Source: a virus
Direction: 5' to 3' (one strand)
Virus genome (UHGV): UHGV-0171787
DNA: 64,000 nucleotides
Part shown: positions 41,607-51,798 of the stretch, in pieces
How the letters are laid out: every line of letters starts with the position of its first letter
Position numbering within the stretch: position 1 is the first letter of the stretch
Program-made: the position numbers and the translations under genes
The notes under the pieces: model-generated
Databases searched by the model: none
Seen by the model: only the letters and a program-made list of their open reading frames with translations
What the model was told of the DNA's origin: nothing

Positions 41607-41810
41607 TTAGTAGAACGAACGGATTTCATCCCACACTTGTTCCTGTTCTTTCCTATAAAAAGAAAGTTGGGTCTTGAACATCTCCACTGATGATTCAAAG
41701 TTTTTAGATTGTGCAGCTTCAACGAAACGTTCATGTCTGTTGATTTTGCACCGTAACATTAAATACTTGGCTTCAAGTCTCCGAAGAGCTTGTCTTTTCT
41801 CAAGATTCAC
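41607..41810 (-). CDS. hypothetical small protein
   Basis: 67-aa ORF. Confidence 0.4.
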   Translation of the reverse strand: MNLEKRQALRRLEAKYLMLRCKINRHERFVEAAQSKNFESSVEMFKTQLSFYRKEQEQVWDEIRSFY

Positions 41811-42225
41811 TTTTCAGATACTCTGACCAGTCACCAGATTCAACCAGAACATCTTGTTCTTCGTCAATATGGTAGATATAGCATTCAACAATTTCACCTG
41901 AATCCATCTTGACGTTGACCAGAGACCTGTTGTAGAAGCTATCTTCAGGGCTATGTTTGTTGTAACCTTCCAGTCGGTCATATGGACCTTCCAGACCTGC
42001 TTTGTCAGTAGCAAACACTTCTACACGAACAGGCTTATTGTTATTGCTGTGTGCGAGAGAGATGCTCGGGAAGTAGGAACCACCGTAACGGAACAGATCG
42101 AAGTTATCTTCAGTCCAACCTTCACCGATTGACTTAGCACCAGCTCGGTCATTAACTAAATAGTTAGCTTGACCACTTCTCAAAGACCCATAACATGCGA
42201 CTAAAACTTTATTTTGTTCTGACAT
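41800..42225 (-). CDS. gamma-glutamyl cyclotransferase-like (AIG2/GGCT fold) protein
   Basis: N-terminal VACYGSLRSGQANY matches the YGSL motif of AIG2/GGCT proteins. Confidence 0.5.
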   Translation of the reverse strand: MSEQNKVLVACYGSLRSGQANYLVNDRAGAKSIGEGWTEDNFDLFRYGGSYFPSISLAHSNNNKPVRVEVFATDKAGLEGPYDRLEGYNKHSPEDSFYNRSLVNVKMDSGEIVECYIYHIDEEQDVLVESGDWSEYLKSES

Positions 42226-42757
42226 TCTTGTAACCCTTATGTTGATATTGTAAGCCTTTATGAACAGCTTGCATCGAAGAGTGCGCTAGATCATTTTCTC
42301 GGCAGAATTTTCTGAGGTTAAACACCTCAATCGTCAACCCCTCTGGAGAAACAAAACTCCAGAAATCAGCATTGCCTTCATGACCTCTATTGAGACCTGT
42401 ATCAAAAGCATGTTGATTATTCTCAGCGGTTGTAACCCATTCCAAGTTGCTAGGATGGTTATTTAACTTATCACCATCTTTATGATTTACGAAGGGTTTA
42501 TTCTCTGGATTATCTACCCAGACAAGTGCTACAAGTCGGTGATAGAAATGAAGCTTCCTATCAGAGAGTTTGATACGAGCGTAACCAGCACGATTAATAT
42601 TTGCTGCCATGATCAACTCTCTATCTTTCCTATGACGTGTTCTTGTCTTTGGATTGATATGCCAACGATAGTTACTACGAATATGACCTTCCTCAGAGAT
42701 AGAGTATTGCCCCTCGTAACCAGTAATTTCTTTCCACTCCATTGAATAACCCTCCAT
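42209..42757 (-). CDS. HNH homing-endonuclease-like protein
   Basis: YEGQYSIS (NUMOD4-like) and VNHKDGDKLNNHPSNLEWVTTAENNQHA (HNH_3-like). Confidence 0.7.
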   Translation of the reverse strand: MEGYSMEWKEITGYEGQYSISEEGHIRSNYRWHINPKTRTRHRKDRELIMAANINRAGYARIKLSDRKLHFYHRLVALVWVDNPENKPFVNHKDGDKLNNHPSNLEWVTTAENNQHAFDTGLNRGHEGNADFWSFVSPEGLTIEVFNLRKFCRENDLAHSSMQAVHKGLQYQHKGYKNVRTK

Positions 42758-42905
42758 AAATTTAAACTATTTCTAGTTCATTACATCTTGGCCAGACTTA
42801 GAACCATAAGTTGCTACGTAAATTACTTCTGACATTATCTATACCTTTGTTGGTTTGTTTAGTTTATCCGAACTAGCCTCCTCTTTTCGAAGAGGCTAAA
42901 GCAGA

Positions 42906-48819: not shown

Positions 48820-49626
48820 TTATGCTACCTGAAGGAGTTTGATCTGCTGGTCAGCTTCTTTAACGTTGTTCCCGTTAATGATTTCATGAAGCTTCTCAAT
48901 CGGAAGGCGAGAGTGCAATGCCATCAGAGTGGACATGTCACACTGCTGAACAACCTTGTCAACCTGATCGTAAACAAACTTACGATTTTCACGATCACTA
49001 ATCCAGAAGTTGGACAGCGAACGGTATTCAATACCATAGTCTTTATAACGGATTGCAGATGCTTTACCATAGAGTTCTTTACGGCGAGTATCTTTGTCCA
49101 TAATTACTGCTGGAAGAGACAGGAAGTAGTCACACAGCACACCCAGCATCATCTGAGTTTGCAGAGTGATATCCAAAGCACCAACTACGCCAAGATGTAC
49201 GTGACCACCGGCAGTACGAAGCCCTTTGTTCTGAGAAGTCGGGGATGGATTCTTCTGACCAGTGAAAGCGTTGAAATCAGGAGTACACCCGAAGATGAAC
49301 GCTGATTCATTGAAAGTCTTCATCTCTTCTTCAGTGAAGATGTGAGAGCTAACACCCGGAGCTGTTTCCATGTCAAGTTTGTTCAGGACACTGTTGGTGA
49401 GATCAATACCACGTTGCATGTTGTCGTTAAACGCTTCAAAGCTGCTCTGTGGGTCAATATCAAACTCAGCCAGTACGTTGTCCTCTTGAAGACGAACATC
49501 CTTAGCCAGAGTGATCTTATCGTCCTTAGAACAACCTAACAGACCAGCTACCGAGGTAATGATACCATTACTGGTGCGAACGAACATCTCGGGATCGCTC
49601 CCAATAAGGAATTTGCGCTTAGTCAT
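48820..49626 (-). CDS. amidoligase-like protein, paralog 2 (weaker)
   Basis: IGSDPEMFV near the N-terminus and RTAGGHVHLG resemble the same amidoligase motifs. Confidence 0.4.
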   Translation of the reverse strand: MTKRKFLIGSDPEMFVRTSNGIITSVAGLLGCSKDDKITLAKDVRLQEDNVLAEFDIDPQSSFEAFNDNMQRGIDLTNSVLNKLDMETAPGVSSHIFTEEEMKTFNESAFIFGCTPDFNAFTGQKNPSPTSQNKGLRTAGGHVHLGVVGALDITLQTQMMLGVLCDYFLSLPAVIMDKDTRRKELYGKASAIRYKDYGIEYRSLSNFWISDRENRKFVYDQVDKVVQQCDMSTLMALHSRLPIEKLHEIINGNNVKEADQQIKLLQVA

Positions 49627-50590
49627 TGTAATACTCCACTAGTTCAGAAAAGAGAGATGAGATTGTGTTACCAACTTCTTCAAGAGTAAGACCAGAACTT
49701 GGGCCAGTACGCTGAATCAGTCGGGCTGTAAAGTTTTGTACTGTAATGCTTTCCAACTTATTGTCTATTGTTTCACGTTTGTGACCATGACAGTTGGACC
49801 AGAGTCTTAACCACCCTGACATTGTTTCATACTCGTCTGGGTCTTGATCTTTATCAAGAGCAAATCCTCGTAAGGCCTCTGGGTTATGGTTACGAACATA
49901 ACCATTCTCATTGTAACCAACACCGAAGGGGTTTTGAACCCATACTTGCTTCGTGTACTCATCAGAGTCTACAACCAAAGGAAGGAATGCTGCTGCTGAC
50001 ATACCATTTTCGATAACAATGGCTGTGTTCTCACCACTCCCATTGGAGGTTCCTCGTTGAGACCATCTACCGAAGAAGTCACGGCCCAATCCAGCTAACA
50101 CTAGAGCGATGCCGATGCGTTTACGCTTCAGCCACTCTTCCCTGTCTTCAATTCCTTCTGCTAGGAAATCCATTCCACGATACTGCCCTTCCAGAATACT
50201 ACGGAAGAGCATAAGTCCTGTGAAGATCTGATCTGCTGGATGCTCACGAAGGTTGACAGCAACACTATTCGCTGAAGTGATTGTAAATACGTCACGATAG
50301 CAAGACATGGAGTTCATAATGTCTGCTGTTTCAACCAAGTTCTTTTCAATCTCAGATGCAGGGTGATTGTGAAAAGAGTGAGTCCAGTAATTCAACATCT
50401 CCAATTGCAAGTTAATACCACGGTTGAAGCGTCTATAACGCCCATCTTCCGTGATAACTTCGCCATCAATATCATTTACGCATTGGCCTTGCATGTAGTT
50501 GTGGACACCGAAGCACCCACGACCTAAGAACTTCTGTTCCCCTAAATCCTGTTGAAGATTCAGAGGTACGATCGTTGTGGAGATTGACAT
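49619..50590 (-). CDS. hypothetical protein within the cluster
   Basis: 323-aa ORF. Confidence 0.45.
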   Translation of the reverse strand: MSISTTIVPLNLQQDLGEQKFLGRGCFGVHNYMQGQCVNDIDGEVITEDGRYRRFNRGINLQLEMLNYWTHSFHNHPASEIEKNLVETADIMNSMSCYRDVFTITSANSVAVNLREHPADQIFTGLMLFRSILEGQYRGMDFLAEGIEDREEWLKRKRIGIALVLAGLGRDFFGRWSQRGTSNGSGENTAIVIENGMSAAAFLPLVVDSDEYTKQVWVQNPFGVGYNENGYVRNHNPEALRGFALDKDQDPDEYETMSGWLRLWSNCHGHKRETIDNKLESITVQNFTARLIQRTGPSSGLTLEEVGNTISSLFSELVEYYND

Positions 50591-50592
50591 AA

Positions 50593-51798
50593 CTAACCTT
50601 TTATTTTCCTAAAAAATAATCCGCTCATAACACCATCCCATTCAGAAGATGGAACCACTGAATACTCCGAACTTCGGTCCAGAGTTCCACTACTAAATCG
50701 CTGAACAATGTTATAGATGTTGAACATATCTTTAGTCTCAATACGATTACCGTAGATTAACTTTTCAGCTGTTCTTTCATTTTTAGACACGCGACGGGTA
50801 AAGTTAACCAAAAGGTTATCACCTTTAAGTATCTCTGACCCATCTTTTACTAGATCGGGATGCATCACTGGCAAGAACATTGAGTTGTTCACTCGTAATT
50901 CTGCTGTTTCATCATTCTCATAATGAATCCACTTAAAATCTTCATCACGAAAGTGACCGCATCCATCTCTGTATGACTGTTGACGCCAAGGCACTTGAAA
51001 TGCTTCAGCGTATTTATCAGCCATACCAACTGTAAATAGCGACGCTGGGAAGATACAAGCATCCCAATCATTACCAACCAGAGTTGCTTTCGTTTCACCC
51101 AAGAGGTTAGTGTAAGTGCTAACCATTCGTGAGTAAACATAAGCCTGAAGGATTGTCCAGCCTTCAACCAACCATTTATGGAGGAAGGTTTCAACTTGAC
51201 TCTCTTCATCTTCACAATAGAAGGTTCGATCTAACATCAAATAGAACAGACAGCGATCAGCAGGAACATTTTCAGTTGCTACACCCATAAAACCTTTCTC
51301 GTGCCAGCGTAAACAGGAGGGACGATCTTTGTCCACAAATGCTTCCATAGCTTCCAGTACAGCACGAGGTGTGGTTCGATGCTCAGGGTTTTTGTCATTC
51401 CAACGTTCAATGTTGTTTTTAAGCTCGCCTTCGTAATCAATAGCACCCCAACCCAAAGCTGCGGATACAGGTTTTTCATCACGCCAACGTATAAAACCTA
51501 ACATCTTCATGTGAGTTCCGGAGTTCCAGATATGCTTAATTTTACACATATCCATTTCTTTACTTAACAGGAACTCTTCCCCATCAGAACTACGAACGTT
51601 ATCTTTTTCATGCCACACTCGAACGTGCATATTCCACCCATGAGTTGCCTCATACATGTTAAGGTCGAAGTAGTCACCATCTTCGTCATCGTTTTCATCA
51701 ACGCCACCGTTATAGTTGCGAAGCTGAAGGAACCCATAACAAGGAGGGTTGACCGTTAAAACATTACCTTCAGTATCTTCTAATGTTACTGGAAACAT
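50593..51798 (-). CDS. hypothetical protein within the cluster
   Basis: 401-aa ORF. Confidence 0.45.
   Translation of the reverse strand: MFPVTLEDTEGNVLTVNPPCYGFLQLRNYNGGVDENDDEDGDYFDLNMYEATHGWNMHVRVWHEKDNVRSSDGEEFLLSKEMDMCKIKHIWNSGTHMKMLGFIRWRDEKPVSAALGWGAIDYEGELKNNIERWNDKNPEHRTTPRAVLEAMEAFVDKDRPSCLRWHEKGFMGVATENVPADRCLFYLMLDRTFYCEDEESQVETFLHKWLVEGWTILQAYVYSRMVSTYTNLLGETKATLVGNDWDACIFPASLFTVGMADKYAEAFQVPWRQQSYRDGCGHFRDEDFKWIHYENDETAELRVNNSMFLPVMHPDLVKDGSEILKGDNLLVNFTRRVSKNERTAEKLIYGNRIETKDMFNIYNIVQRFSSGTLDRSSEYSVVPSSEWDGVMSGLFFRKIKG

What the first reader, a model, noticed from the sequence alone, without database searches (positions are those of the whole stretch)
41800..51798. Amidoligase / class-II glutamine amidotransferase / ATP-grasp / GGCT-like gene cluster: candidate novel modification system
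In about 10 kb of one minus-strand operon the phage encodes a GGCT/AIG2-like protein (41800-42225), an ATP-grasp ligase (43343-44539), an Ntn-type class-II glutamine amidotransferase with N-terminal Cys and Cys-rich C-terminus (44983-47013), two amidoligase-like paralogs with HVH motifs (47093-48196, 48820-49626) and three unassigned proteins (48193-48810, 49619-50590, 50593-51798). Amidoligase genes are known to co-occur with GAT-like and AIG2-like genes in conserved neighbourhoods, and such systems have been predicted to make peptide-like conjugates. With the ThyX-like, dCTP deaminase and nucleotidyltransferase genes nearby, one possibility is amino-acid-type hypermodification of DNA bases; protein tagging or a small-molecule product are alternatives. 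I could not assign the chemistry from sequence.
Basis: partly seen in the sequence, partly recalled or inferred. Interest (0 to 1): 0.9.

Follow-up and report, generated by a model that had tools for sequence, protein, structure and literature searches.

The report
Known phiEco32 phage amide-ligase gene cassette
This stretch is the amide-bond-forming enzyme cassette first described in coliphage phiEco32 in 2009: it is real, found in hundreds of phages and still of untested function, but the evidence points to a gamma-glutamyl-type metabolite or peptide rather than to modified DNA.

Summary
All eight ORFs sit at the stated coordinates on the minus strand. Profile searches support GGCT/AIG2, class-II GATase, Amidoligase_2, COOH-NH2_lig and a RimK-like ATP-grasp.

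It is not new. The window is a Kuravirus, about 94% identical to phiEco32-like phages. This is the phiEco32 gp77-gp88 cluster, after which Pfam PF14395 is named. The literature calls it a "putative peptidoglycan modification module"; I found no experimental test.

What I add, from 79 diverse viral loci:
- There is a five-gene core: COOH-NH2 ligase, the "unassigned" gp85, Amidoligase_2, GAT and ATP-grasp.
- gp85 models as tandem SH3-like barrels and always lies between the two ligases.
- A gamma-glutamyl-removing enzyme, either GGCT or Peptidase_C26, accompanies the core.
- gp88 has no detectable known fold and a very narrow distribution.
- The GAT gene starts at a conserved AUU codon, and several public annotations cut off its catalytic Cys1.

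DNA hypermodification is unlikely (about 0.1). The window has no 5-HMUDK, aGPT-Pplase, hydroxymethylase or CmoX. A cassette-bearing relative showed no DNA modification motifs by native nanopore sequencing. Restriction sites are strongly avoided.

The best reading is a cytoplasmic gamma-glutamyl/amide conjugation pathway whose acceptor is unknown.

The parts
41800..42225 (-). GGCT/AIG2-like gamma-glutamyl(amine) cyclotransferase (phiEco32 gp77 homologue). A frequent accessory gene of the cassette.
   Evidence: Pfam GGACT 1.5e-15, covering the full profile. PHROG 2520, 3e-42. Across 79 related loci it alternates with Peptidase_C26: GGCT only in 26, C26 only in 29, both in 13.
42209..42757 (-). 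HNH homing endonuclease (NUMOD4 + HNH_3). A mobile insertion, not part of the pathway.
   Evidence: Pfam NUMOD4 1.9e-10 and HNH_3 4.7e-8. No HNH gene is annotated at this position in Paul or phiEco32. The query coverage of 94% is consistent with an insertion.
42906..43336 (-). Two small genes, gp78-like (42906-43091) and gp79-like (43088-43336). phiEco32 gp79 is an RNA-polymerase regulator that sits inside the cassette in Kuraviruses only.
   Evidence: [quoted passage not shown]
43343..44539 (-). ATP-grasp amide ligase of RimK/MptN-like flavour (gp80 homologue). It has a Kuravirus-specific acidic linker and C-terminal domain. Universal core gene.
   Evidence: NCBIfam MptN 3.3e-8 and RimK family 9e-7. 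PDB phmmer: Ddl 0.002, alpha-L-glutamate ligase 0.014. Invariant K85, R121, E157, R159, D229, E241, N243. Present in 73/79 related loci.
44542..44766 (-). gp81-like small protein of 74 aa. No assignment; restricted to this lineage.
   Evidence: PHROG 13464 (function unknown), 6e-48. No Pfam hit.
44747..44980 (-). gp82-like small basic protein of Pfam family DUF7195. It is conserved between the GAT and ATP-grasp genes in Kuravirus, 7-11, LUZ24, UFV-P2 and Lyrsu03.
   Evidence: Pfam DUF7195 4.7e-17; homologues 4e-36 to 5e-19. Found in 20-22 of 79 loci. pI 9.4.
44983..47013 (-). Ntn class-II glutamine amidotransferase (gp83 homologue). An N-terminal glutaminase domain (about 1-215) is followed by an unassigned middle region and a conserved Zn-ribbon-like CxxC...CxxC motif, plus two Kuravirus-specific Cys clusters. 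Translation starts at ATT. Universal core gene.
   Evidence: GATase_6 1.5e-14. Invariant R28-G-x-H, G-H-x-R-x-A-T-x-G, N-A-H-P-F, H-N-G, V-D-S, and C486/C489/C511. ATT start after an in-frame TAG and an AGGTGG. The PHROG profile aligns Cys to its position 2. Present in 72/79 loci.
47093..48196 (-). Amidoligase_2, a glutamine-synthetase/GCS2-fold carboxylate-amine ligase (gp84 homologue). Universal core gene.
   Evidence: Pfam PF12224 5.3e-8. Invariant E31, E33, E35, D50, R54, E58, H95, H97, E119, R130, E186, R188. Present in 72-77 of 79 loci.
48193..48810 (-). gp85-like protein, modelled as tandem SH3-like beta-barrels. I find it to be a universal core gene that always lies between the two ligase genes. 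Inferred role: adaptor or substrate-binding subunit.
48820..49626 (-). COOH-NH2 ligase type 2 (gp86 homologue, the founding member of PF14395). Universal core gene.
   Evidence: Pfam 1.5e-8. PHROG 3815, 2e-118. Invariant D11, E13, E54, H142, H144, R182, R193, K195, E200, R202. tblastn finds it in 307 phage records and 314 IMG/VR stretches.
49619..50590 (-). gp87-like protein, a probable distant paralogue of gp88. A lineage-restricted 'front-end' gene.
   Evidence: No Pfam or NCBIfam hit. It shares an N-terminal C-[FY]-G motif and a PAD[RQ]..L[ML]..R motif with gp88. hhalign E 0.03 but reported probability only 1.6%. Phage 7-11 has two copies.
50593..51798 (-). gp88-like protein with no detectable known fold and many invariant Cys/His/Asp/Arg residues. 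A lineage-restricted 'front-end' gene.
51810..52172 (-). gp89-like basic protein of 120 aa, the first gene after the upstream terminator-like hairpin. Whether it belongs to the cassette is uncertain.
   Evidence: ORF list. Kuravirus-only cluster, in 8 loci. Terminator-like site at 52371-52354.

Best explanation
**What it is (shown).** The region is the phiEco32-type amide-ligase cassette, a gene set I found essentially only in phages and expressed together with the replication genes.

**What it most likely does (inferred).** It runs a cytoplasmic pathway that builds and then trims a gamma-glutamyl- and amide-containing conjugate on a soluble acceptor carrying an amine or a carboxylate. The acceptor would be a small metabolite or short peptide, not DNA.

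**Proposed steps, all inferred from family chemistry:**
1. The two glutamine-synthetase-fold ligases, gp86 (COOH-NH2_lig) and gp84 (Amidoligase_2), use ATP to activate carboxylates as acyl-phosphates and join them to amines. Typically this is the gamma-carboxyl of glutamate.
2. The tandem SH3-like protein gp85, encoded between them, holds them together or presents the substrate.
3. The RimK-like ATP-grasp gp80 adds an alpha-linked amino acid, probably glutamate.
4. The Ntn glutaminase domain of gp83 uses Cys1 to take the amide nitrogen from glutamine for an amidation step, or handles a gamma-glutamyl amide.
5. The GGCT/AIG2 enzyme gp77 finally removes a gamma-glutamyl group as 5-oxoproline and frees the amine. 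In other phages a Peptidase_C26 gamma-glutamyl hydrolase would do this job.

The lineage-specific proteins gp87 and gp88, of no recognisable fold, at the head of the gene set may choose or prepare the acceptor.

**Shown versus inferred.** Shown: gene content, conservation, active-site integrity, soluble acidic proteins, and near-restriction to phages. Inferred: every chemical step and the nature of the acceptor.
For: **Identity of the cassette.** It is about 94% identical in DNA to the clusters of phiEco32-like phages and colinear with phiEco32 gp77-gp88. The same gene order occurs in LUZ24 gp14-gp22, UFV-P2, 7-11 and SU7.

**Enzyme families and intact active sites.**

**Core and accessory genes in 79 diverse viral loci.**
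- ATP-grasp in 73, GAT in 72, Amidoligase_2 in 72-77, gp85-like in 67.
- gp85-like lies between the two ligases in 66/66 loci, with stop/start overlap into Amidoligase_2 in 88%.

**Gamma-glutamyl chemistry.** GGCT (Pfam GGACT) and Peptidase_C26 (PF07722, 5e-22) substitute for one another: 26 loci have GGCT only, 29 have C26 only and 13 have both. From established knowledge of these families, both cleave gamma-glutamyl-amine or gamma-glutamyl-peptide bonds. Examples are GGACT and BtrG, and PuuD and gamma-glutamyl hydrolase.

**Location.** All the proteins are acidic and lack hydrophobic segments, so they are cytoplasmic.

**Timing.** phiEco32 gp79, which lies inside the cluster, is a middle gene. 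Primase/helicase follows the cassette in most loci.

**Near-restriction to phages.** Only 9 hits came from one genome for each of 100,044 species, all of them the same cassette on short contigs, most from metagenome bins.

**Against DNA as the acceptor.**
Against: - No step has been tested biochemically, here or in any paper I could find.
- The acceptor is unknown, and no transporter, carrier or tailoring enzyme in the window points to it.
- The ATP-grasp scores far below the curated RimK and Ddl cut-offs, so its substrate class is a guess.
- The GAT could be a gamma-glutamyl amidase rather than an ammonia donor.
- SH3-like barrels and a conserved Zn-ribbon-like motif would also suit a macromolecular target: protein, nucleic acid or peptidoglycan peptide.
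- The literature's own hypothesis is modification of peptidoglycan, and nothing here excludes a peptidoglycan-precursor acceptor.
- The tight linkage to replication genes has no explanation under a pure 'metabolite' reading. It may simply reflect shared ancestry of the whole early/middle module.
Confidence: 0.4

Rival explanations
1. Cell-wall (peptidoglycan-precursor) modification, the hypothesis in the literature. The ligases would rebuild or alter the stem peptide of cytoplasmic murein precursors (gamma-glutamyl, amidated and D-Ala-D-Ala-like linkages). The infected cell's wall or surface would then change, blocking superinfection or adjusting lysis.
For: - This is how the cassette is described, following Iyer 2009 and Hardies 2013.
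- The ATP-grasp has weak Ddl-like matches.
- From established knowledge, amidation and gamma-glutamyl bonds are typical of stem peptides (MurT/GatD, AsnB/LtsA, Ddl).
- The hosts of the isolated phages in the collection that I could see are Gram-negative genera.
- From established knowledge, SH3-type domains can bind murein peptides; gp85 models as two SH3-like barrels.
Against: - I found no experimental test.
- All the proteins are cytoplasmic, and there is no flippase or export component.
- These are strictly lytic phages. At least gp79, which lies inside the cluster, is a middle gene, which leaves little time for a wall-turnover effect.
- By profile score the ATP-grasp is closer to RimK/MptN glutamate ligases than to Ddl.
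- From my own knowledge, GGCT and Peptidase_C26 are not known murein enzymes.
- Some cassette contigs are binned with, or predicted to infect, archaea, which lack murein. Those host assignments are weak.
Confidence: 0.2
2. Peptide tagging of a protein. The RimK-like ATP-grasp and the ligases would add glutamate-containing tails or gamma-glutamyl isopeptides to a host or phage protein, for example a ribosomal protein, RNA polymerase or a replication protein. GAT and GGCT would act as trimming or removal enzymes, and gp85 as the target-recognition adaptor.
For: - RimK-family similarity of the ATP-grasp; from established knowledge, RimK glutamylates ribosomal protein S6.
- A conserved Zn-ribbon-like motif on the GAT.
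- The RNA-polymerase regulator gp79 is embedded in the Kuravirus cassette.
- From my own knowledge, Iyer 2009 raised peptide tagging as a theme for these ligase families.
Against: - No candidate substrate has been identified.
- From my own knowledge, GGACT-type enzymes act on free gamma-glutamyl-amines rather than on intact proteins.
- The need for three different ligases plus a glutaminase is not explained.
Confidence: 0.15
3. Nucleic-acid hypermodification. The ligases would attach glutamate or an amino-acid-type group to a base in phage DNA (or RNA). This would explain the resistance of Gordonclarkvirinae to restriction-modification systems.
For: [quoted passage not shown]
- The window keeps 28 EcoRV, 8 EcoKI and 93 EcoP1 sites, so site loss alone cannot explain that resistance.
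- The cassette sits next to primase/helicase in every lineage.
- Amidoligase and GATase Pfam hits co-occur with 5-HMUDK/aGPT-Pplase clusters in some metagenomic viral contigs.
- An ATP-dependent amide ligase acting on DNA has a precedent in CmoY.
- gp87 and gp88 have no recognisable fold and no known function.
Against: - The window has no dUMP/dCMP hydroxymethylase, 5-HMUDK, aGPT-Pplase, CmoA/CmoX, DNA methyltransferase, TET or DpdA. It has only a standard ThyX, a dCTP deaminase and the like.
- gDNA of a cassette-bearing LUZ24-like phage was cut by 11/16 enzymes, and phiEco32 termini were mapped by restriction profiling and subcloning.
- Strong avoidance of CCWGG (4 observed vs 90 expected), CTGCAG (0 vs 20), GAGCTC (1 vs 21) and GAATTC (6 vs 23) implies the DNA is exposed to restriction enzymes.
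- gp87, gp88 and gp85 are acidic, with pI 5.0-6.0.
Confidence: 0.1
4. Plain auxiliary nitrogen metabolism. The enzymes would simply reroute host glutamine, glutamate and glutathione-like pools (a phage 'gamma-glutamyl cycle') to feed nucleotide synthesis, with no dedicated new product.
For: - The set formally resembles a gamma-glutamyl cycle: GCS2-fold ligases, a glutathione-synthetase-like ATP-grasp, an Ntn hydrolase and GGCT (families; the cycle itself is established knowledge).
- Thioredoxin (35447-35719) and, in RIO-1, glutaredoxin are encoded nearby.
- Several papers label these genes auxiliary metabolic genes.
Against: - Apart from 9 short contigs, most from metagenome bins, the scan found no cellular orthologues in one genome for each of 100,044 species. 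That is unlike typical auxiliary metabolic genes, which are copied from hosts.
- None of the proteins reaches the curated cut-off of a housekeeping enzyme family.
- The invariant ligase-gp85-ligase arrangement and the lineage-specific proteins of unrecognised fold suggest a dedicated product.
Confidence: 0.1

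Closest known systems
phiEco32 gp77-gp88 cluster (Kuravirus; founding member of Pfam PF14395, discussed by Iyer et al. 2009)
   Same: Same genes in the same order, with about 94% DNA identity over the region across phiEco32-like phages. 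The GAT gene has the same ATT start. It lies in the same position, upstream of primase/helicase.
   Different: This window has an extra HNH homing-endonuclease gene between the GGCT gene and the gp78-like gene. It also has a group I intron in the adjacent primase/helicase gene.
LUZ24/UFV-P2/tf (Bruynoghevirus, Vicosavirus) gp14-gp22 'putative peptidoglycan modification module'
   Same: Colinear order: COOH-NH2_lig, gp85-like, Amidoligase_2, GAT, DUF7195, ATP-grasp, GGCT, then primase/helicase. Protein identities are 30-39%, or lower for the gp85-like protein.
   Different: - The two proteins at the head of the cassette (gp14/gp15) show no detectable sequence relation to gp87/gp88.
- The GAT and ATP-grasp proteins are shorter: there are no extra Cys clusters and no C-terminal ATP-grasp domain.
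- The start codon is ATG.
- There is no gp79-like regulator.
Marine and Zobellviridae cassettes (RIO-1, Klyazma, many IMG/VR contigs)
   Same: The same five-gene core next to primase/helicase.
   Different: The gene order is rearranged. A Peptidase_C26 gamma-glutamyl hydrolase is often present instead of, or together with, GGCT. In RIO-1 the COOH-NH2 ligase carries an extra N-terminal domain.
Puu/Pau gamma-glutamyl-polyamine pathway, and gamma-glutamyl protecting-group chemistry in butirosin biosynthesis (BtrJ ATP-grasp, BtrG GGCT-like); from established knowledge
   Same: The same logic: an ATP-dependent ligase puts a gamma-glutamyl group on an amine, and a C26 hydrolase or an AIG2/GGCT-fold cyclotransferase later removes it. 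The enzyme folds match.
   Different: The phage ligases belong to the Amidoligase_2 and COOH-NH2_lig branches, not the GlnA/PuuA type. There is no oxidase, dehydrogenase, acyl carrier protein or PLP enzyme. The acceptor is unknown. It is therefore not a member of these pathways, only a resemblance in mechanism.
Amino-acid-type DNA hypermodification systems (5-HMUDK/aGPT-Pplase thymidine pathways; CmoA/CmoX/CmoY 5cxmC-glycine)
   Same: They are phage-encoded, are expressed with replication genes, and form amide bonds or add amino acids. Amidoligase and GATase domains are seen beside some thymidine-hypermodification clusters.
   Different: None of their defining enzymes is present in the window. 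CmoY is an asparagine-synthetase-type AMP-forming ligase, which is a different fold.

Membership tests
phiEco32-type amidoligase cassette ('putative peptidoglycan modification module') | COOH-NH2 ligase type 2 (PF14395) present | tested here: met
   48820-49626: Pfam 1.5e-8, above the cut-off. PHROG 2e-118.
phiEco32-type amidoligase cassette ('putative peptidoglycan modification module') | Second ligase of the Amidoligase_2 family (PF12224) in the same gene set | tested here: met
   47093-48196: Pfam 5.3e-8, above the cut-off. Catalytic Glu/His/Arg residues are invariant.
phiEco32-type amidoligase cassette ('putative peptidoglycan modification module') | Ntn class-II GAT, ATP-grasp and AIG2/GGCT genes co-directional with the ligases | tested here: met
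   The same co-occurrence is seen in 72-73 of 79 viral loci for GAT and ATP-grasp.
phiEco32-type amidoligase cassette ('putative peptidoglycan modification module') | Synteny with phiEco32 gp77-gp88, adjacent to primase/helicase | tested here: met
   About 94% DNA identity across phiEco32-like phages and the same gene order.
phiEco32-type amidoligase cassette ('putative peptidoglycan modification module') | The claimed activity: modification of peptidoglycan or the cell wall | not testable with these tools
   This is only a literature prediction. I found no experiment.
Class-II (Ntn) glutamine amidotransferase | N-terminal Cys nucleophile directly after the initiator Met | tested here: met
   ATT-TGT start. 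The PHROG profile aligns Cys to its position 2.
Class-II (Ntn) glutamine amidotransferase | Glutamine-binding and oxyanion residues (equivalents of GlmS Arg26, Arg73, Thr76, Asn98-Gly99 and Asp123) | tested here: met
   R28, R85, T88, N110-G111 and D128 are invariant in 8 lineages. The match to PurF/GlmS motifs is shown.
Class-II (Ntn) glutamine amidotransferase | A recognisable fused or partner synthase domain that accepts the ammonia | tested here: not met
   Residues from about 215 to 676 have no Pfam, NCBIfam or PDB match. Only a conserved Zn-ribbon-like motif is present. Which protein receives the ammonia, if any, is unknown.
RimK-family alpha-L-glutamate ligase (ATP-grasp) | Score above the family's curated cut-off | tested here: not met
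   RimK family 28.5 bits against a cut-off of 143. MptN 33 against 350. Pfam RimK 16.4 against 21. It is an ATP-grasp, but it cannot be filed as RimK.
RimK-family alpha-L-glutamate ligase (ATP-grasp) | ATP-grasp nucleotide- and Mg-binding residues | tested here: met
   Invariant K85, E157, R159, D229, E241-x-N243 and the G-x-G loop.
Thymidine hypermodification pathway (Lee et al. 2018/2021) | dUMP hydroxymethylase or a TET-like oxidase that makes 5-hmdU | tested here: not met
   Only a standard ThyX is present (Thy1 5e-44). No ThyA-like hydroxymethylase was found in the ORFs scanned.
Thymidine hypermodification pathway (Lee et al. 2018/2021) | 5-HMUDK kinase and aGPT-Pplase (glycosylase-like) genes | tested here: not met
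   No such Pfam hits among the minus-strand ORFs I scanned: nearly all of 100 aa or more plus several smaller ones, between 25 and 63 kb. About 13 kb of the genome lies outside the window.
Thymidine hypermodification pathway (Lee et al. 2018/2021) | Non-canonical nucleosides in virion DNA | not testable with these tools
   Indirect evidence only: a cassette-bearing relative showed no modification motifs by nanopore.
CmoA/CmoX/CmoY 5-carboxymethylcytosine-amide system | Cx-SAM synthase CmoA and the C5-methyltransferase-like CmoX | tested here: not met
   No methyltransferase or CmoA-like hits in the window. The system is defined.
Puu/Pau gamma-glutamyl-amine catabolic pathway | GlnA-type gamma-glutamyl-amine synthetase, C26 hydrolase, and oxidase and aldehyde dehydrogenase | tested here: not met
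   The ligases belong to other branches of the fold. This window has no C26, although 42 of 79 related loci do. No oxidoreductases are present.

The most novel reading that the evidence does not exclude
In Gordonclarkvirinae the cassette, guided by the lineage-specific proteins gp87 and gp88, attaches a glutamate-derived group to phage nucleic acid. The mark might be present at low density or only on intracellular DNA. It would be the missing cause of the family's broad resistance to restriction-modification systems, and a new chemical class of DNA modification made by glutamine-synthetase-fold and ATP-grasp ligases.
Probability: 0.08. Interest if true: 0.9.

Novelty: already known. Interest (0 to 1): 0.45.

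Why it matters
A pathway of five to eight enzymes is conserved next to the replication genes of more than 300 sequenced phages and hundreds of metagenomic viral contigs. The phages infect Escherichia, Pseudomonas, Vibrio, Aeromonas, Klebsiella, marine bacteria and others. Its function has gone untested for more than 15 years.

Many therapeutic-candidate phages of the Kuravirus and LUZ24-like groups carry it.

Knowing its product would do one of three things:
- reveal a new phage-made metabolite or tag;
- confirm a cell-wall remodelling strategy;
- less likely, explain the unexplained restriction resistance of Gordonclarkvirinae.

This work narrows the problem in three ways. It defines a minimal five-gene core that includes a previously ignored adaptor protein. 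It shows that a gamma-glutamyl-removing step is a recurrent part of the design. It also points out that several public annotations cut off the catalytic N-terminus of the amidotransferase, because the gene starts at AUU.

Tried and rejected
**Structure and fold searches**
- The COOH-NH2_lig profile finds no solved structure.

**Sequence comparisons**
- Linking LUZ24 gp14/gp15 to gp87/gp88 by HMM and hhalign gave no signal.
- The relation between gp87 and gp88 rests on shared motifs, a weak hhalign hit (E 0.03, reported probability 1.6%) and weak HMM hits. It is suggestive only.
- The iterated gp87/88 HMM had not converged after 6 rounds (29 loci). I therefore quote only 'at least 18-29 loci'.
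- PADLOC defence-protein models gave no hits.

**Ideas dropped**
- I considered the small gp82-like protein as a LysW-type carrier with an acidic C-terminus. I rejected this because its C-terminus is not conserved. The family is Pfam DUF7195. My impression that it looks ribbon-helix-helix was not tested.
- I looked for a phiEco32 gp36-type promoter (TAATGTATA) in front of the cluster. There is no exact match there, and matches window-wide are no more frequent than chance.
- A search for cellular counterparts in one genome per species found only 9 copies on short contigs, most from metagenome bins.

**Literature limits**
- Iyer 2009, Hardies 2013, Savalia 2008 and De Smet 2016 are not held in the library.
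- The paper cap stopped me reading two 2024 papers that mention the amidoligase.

**Technical**
- A first Markov-simulation script timed out. I replaced it with an analytic expectation.

Full report
**1. What the window is.** The 10 kb region matches 99 phage records. Sixty-six of them cover at least 80% of it, and the best records are about 94% identical. Nearly all are Escherichia or Shigella phages of the genus Kuravirus (Gordonclarkvirinae): FH3, Paul, NJ01, ES17, SkaterBoy_Bas90 and phiEco32 itself. The region is colinear with phiEco32 genes gp77 to gp88 and lies immediately upstream, in transcription order, of primase/helicase, the polymerase exonuclease subunit, a nucleotidyltransferase, dCTP deaminase and ThyX.

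**2. Checking the observation.**
- Profile searches confirm GGACT/AIG2 (1.5e-15), GATase_6 (1.5e-14), Amidoligase_2 (5.3e-8) and COOH-NH2_lig (1.5e-8).
- The ATP-grasp is below Pfam cut-offs. It is supported by NCBIfam MptN (3.3e-8) and RimK family (9e-7) hits, themselves far below their curated cut-offs, by weak Ddl and glutamate-ligase matches in the PDB, and by invariant nucleotide- and Mg-binding residues.
- The three 'unassigned' proteins have no Pfam or NCBIfam hit.

**3. The GAT start codon.** The reading frame is closed by TAG at 47019-47017. The only possible initiator before the catalytic Cys codon is ATT at 47013-47011, eight bases after AGGTGG. The same ATT-TGT-GG start is present in phiEco32, Paul and the more distant SU7, whereas 7-11 and RIO-1 use ATG-TGT-GG. 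phiEco32's record uses the long CDS. The Paul and SU7 records start downstream and so lose Cys1; the Paul record also loses the other glutaminase motifs. Those motifs are invariant across eight lineages: R-G-x-H, G-H-x-R-x-A-T-x-G, N-A-H-P-F, H-N-G and V-D-S. So are C486, C489 and C511 of a CxxC...CxxC Zn-ribbon-like motif near the C-terminus.

**4. It is a known cassette.**
- Pfam PF14395 is named after the phiEco32 protein.
- The same gene set was tabulated in LUZ24-like phages in 2012-2014.
- It has been called a seven-gene 'peptidoglycan modification cassette', conserved in RIO-1, phiEco32, 7-11, PA11, tf, MR299-2, LUZ24, PaP3 and CW02, and a 'putative peptidoglycan modification module'.
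- Papers up to 2025 still cite only the 2009 prediction of cell-wall modification or superinfection exclusion.
- Ten full-text searches found no experimental test.

**5. Anatomy across phages (new analysis).** I fetched loci from phiEco32, SU7, 7-11, LUZ24, UFV-P2, Lyrsu03, RIO-1 and Klyazma, plus 79 diverse IMG/VR loci that encode a COOH-NH2_lig relative. I called ORFs and searched them with family HMMs.
- ATP-grasp is present in 73 of 79 loci, GAT in 72 and Amidoligase_2 in 72-77. Most absences are at contig ends.
- The 'unassigned' gp85 family is found, after HMM iteration to convergence, once in each of 67 loci.
- In all 66 loci that have the three genes, gp85 lies directly between COOH-NH2_lig and Amidoligase_2. 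Its stop overlaps the Amidoligase_2 start in 88% of them. gp85 is therefore a fifth universal component.
- An unlabelled cluster present in 42 loci turned out to be Peptidase_C26, the gamma-glutamyl hydrolase/PuuD family (5e-22).
- C26 and GGCT behave as alternatives: 29 loci have C26 only, 26 have GGCT only, 13 have both and 11 have neither.
- Primase/helicase follows within 10 kb in at least 41-53 loci.
- The small gp82 protein belongs to Pfam DUF7195 and is shared by Kuravirus, 7-11, LUZ24, UFV-P2 and Lyrsu03.
- A scan of one genome for each of 100,044 prokaryotic species found only nine copies. All are the same cassette on short contigs, most from metagenome bins. The system is therefore essentially confined to phages.

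**6. The unknown proteins.**
- In BFVD it matches only uncharacterised proteins of about 290-500 aa from other cassette-bearing phages: GAP52 (two copies), Proteus 3H10_20, Aeromonas LAh_6 and LAh_8, and CW02.
- Its profile finds only 23 representative clusters among 1.84 billion proteins.
- It has many invariant Cys, His, Asp and Arg residues. With gp87 it shares an N-terminal C-[FY]-G motif and a PAD[RQ]..L[ML]..R motif. A similar motif occurs in the gene upstream of the ligase in some marine contigs.
- gp87 and gp88 thus look like a lineage-variable, paralogous 'front end'. LUZ24 gp14/gp15 occupy the same position but show no detectable similarity.
- All the cassette proteins are acidic and lack hydrophobic segments.

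**7. Mechanism.** From the established chemistry of the families:
- Glutamine-synthetase/GCS2-fold ligases make acyl-phosphates and couple them to amines.
- RimK-type ATP-grasp enzymes add alpha-linked glutamate.
- Ntn glutaminases take the amide nitrogen of glutamine or cleave gamma-glutamyl amides.
- AIG2/GGACT and C26 enzymes remove gamma-glutamyl groups from amines.

Two results are the strongest internal evidence that the pathway passes through a gamma-glutamyl-amine intermediate that is later deprotected: the interchangeability of GGCT and C26, and the fixed ligase-gp85-ligase arrangement. This would be formally like the Puu/Pau pathways or the gamma-glutamyl protecting group in butirosin biosynthesis.

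Every catalytic residue set is intact. I therefore favour a cytoplasmic pathway that makes a glutamate- and amide-containing small conjugate (confidence 0.4). The acceptor is unknown. The rivals are peptidoglycan precursors (0.2), a protein target (0.15), nucleic acid (0.1) and generic nitrogen metabolism (0.1).

**8. The DNA-hypermodification idea.**

For it:
- Gordonclarkvirinae are unusually resistant to restriction-modification systems, and no mechanism is known.
- The window retains 28 EcoRV, 8 EcoKI and 93 EcoP1 sites.
- Amidoligase and GATase domains accompany some thymidine-hypermodification clusters elsewhere.
- An amide ligase acting on DNA now has a precedent.

Against it:
- Pfam scans of the minus-strand ORFs of the window found no hydroxymethylase, 5-HMUDK, aGPT-Pplase, CmoA/CmoX, methyltransferase, TET or DpdA. 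They covered nearly all ORFs of 100 aa or more, plus several smaller ones.
- Pseudomonas phage Rembedalsseter carries the cassette, and its native DNA showed no modification motifs against a whole-genome-amplified control.
- gDNA of a cassette-bearing LUZ24-like phage was cut by 11 of 16 enzymes.
- phiEco32 DNA was restriction-profiled and subcloned.
- The window avoids many restriction sites strongly: CCWGG 4 observed against 90 expected, CTGCAG 0 against 20, GAGCTC 1 against 21, GAATTC 6 against 23, and GATC at 0.47 of expectation. That is the signature of DNA exposed to restriction rather than shielded by a bulky modification.

I put this reading at about 0.1 for the cassette. It cannot be excluded for Kuraviruses specifically, because their gp87 and gp88 are lineage-specific.

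**9. Verdict.** However, the system is the already described phiEco32 cassette, so its novelty is 'already known'. It keeps moderate interest because its function is an open and now well-framed question. This analysis adds the five-gene core, the role of gp85, the GGCT/C26 alternation, the proteins with no recognisable fold, and the AUU start.

Noticed in passing
window 47011-47026 (minus strand): The GAT gene starts at a non-canonical ATT (AUU) codon, after an in-frame TAG and a good Shine-Dalgarno. The start is conserved in Kuravirus and Suseptimavirus but is ATG in 7-11 and RIO-1. The public annotations of phages Paul and SU7 start downstream and cut off the catalytic Cys1.
   Followed up: yes
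window 40132-40342 (minus strand): A group I intron (Rfam RF00028, 86.3 bits, E 1.7e-22) splits the primase/helicase gene into ORFs 40330-41580 and 39537-40082. phiEco32 lacks it, and its sequence reads straight across the junction. RIO-1 also has a group I intron in its primase/helicase gene.
   Followed up: partly
window 42209-42757 (minus strand): An HNH homing-endonuclease gene (NUMOD4 + HNH_3) is inserted between the GGCT gene and the gp78-like gene, overlapping the GGCT start by 17 nt. No HNH gene is annotated there in Paul or phiEco32. Homing endonucleases sit at other places in the cassette in SU7, UFV-P2 and Klyazma. A second HNH gene lies at 54470-54985.
   Followed up: partly
whole window: Restriction sites are avoided strongly but selectively. 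CCWGG: 4 observed vs 90 expected. CTGCAG: 0 vs 20. GCATGC: 0 vs 11. GAGCTC: 1 vs 21. CCATGG: 1 vs 12. GAATTC: 6 vs 23. GATC: 0.47 of expectation. Sites such as GATATC, AATATT, TTTAAA and GTTAAC are not avoided. All 6-bp palindromes together stand at 0.70 of expectation.
   Followed up: partly
window 37683-39041 (minus strand): The 'nucleotidyltransferase' that others have linked to possible DNA modification matches only weakly the poly(A)-polymerase/CCA-adding head domain (PF01743, E 0.002; motif GGAVRD...DIDIF). It has a long C-terminal half with no Pfam match. Its substrate is unknown.
   Followed up: no
window 34221-34550 (minus strand): A free-standing 109-aa protein consists only of the NAD+-binding Ia domain of DNA ligase (Pfam Nlig-Ia, 1.5e-35). 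No ligase catalytic domain is attached.
   Followed up: no
L007 (Klebsiella phage Klyazma) 5111-12528: Seven small ORFs scattered through the Klyazma cassette all end in the same C-terminal motif, ...[LI]-E-N-K. Several begin with SH3-like 'KxGDxV' sequences. The shared ending may encode the ribosome-binding site of the next gene, or it may mark a repeated mobile unit.
   Followed up: no
window 28811-28819(-), 33295-33303(-), 5545-5553(+), 20281-20289(+): Four exact matches to the phiEco32 gp36-dependent middle/late promoter consensus TAATGTATA. None lies within or just upstream of the cassette. A terminator-like hairpin at 52371-52354 (minus strand) precedes the gp89-like gene.
   Followed up: partly
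L091-L097 and L092/L096 (genome-contig hits): Copies of the cassette occur on contigs binned as Halobacteriales and Aenigmatarchaeota archaea, Dojkabacteria, Crocinitomix and Rhodovulum. These are probably viral contigs caught up in metagenome bins. If any really infect archaea, that would argue against a murein target.
   Followed up: partly
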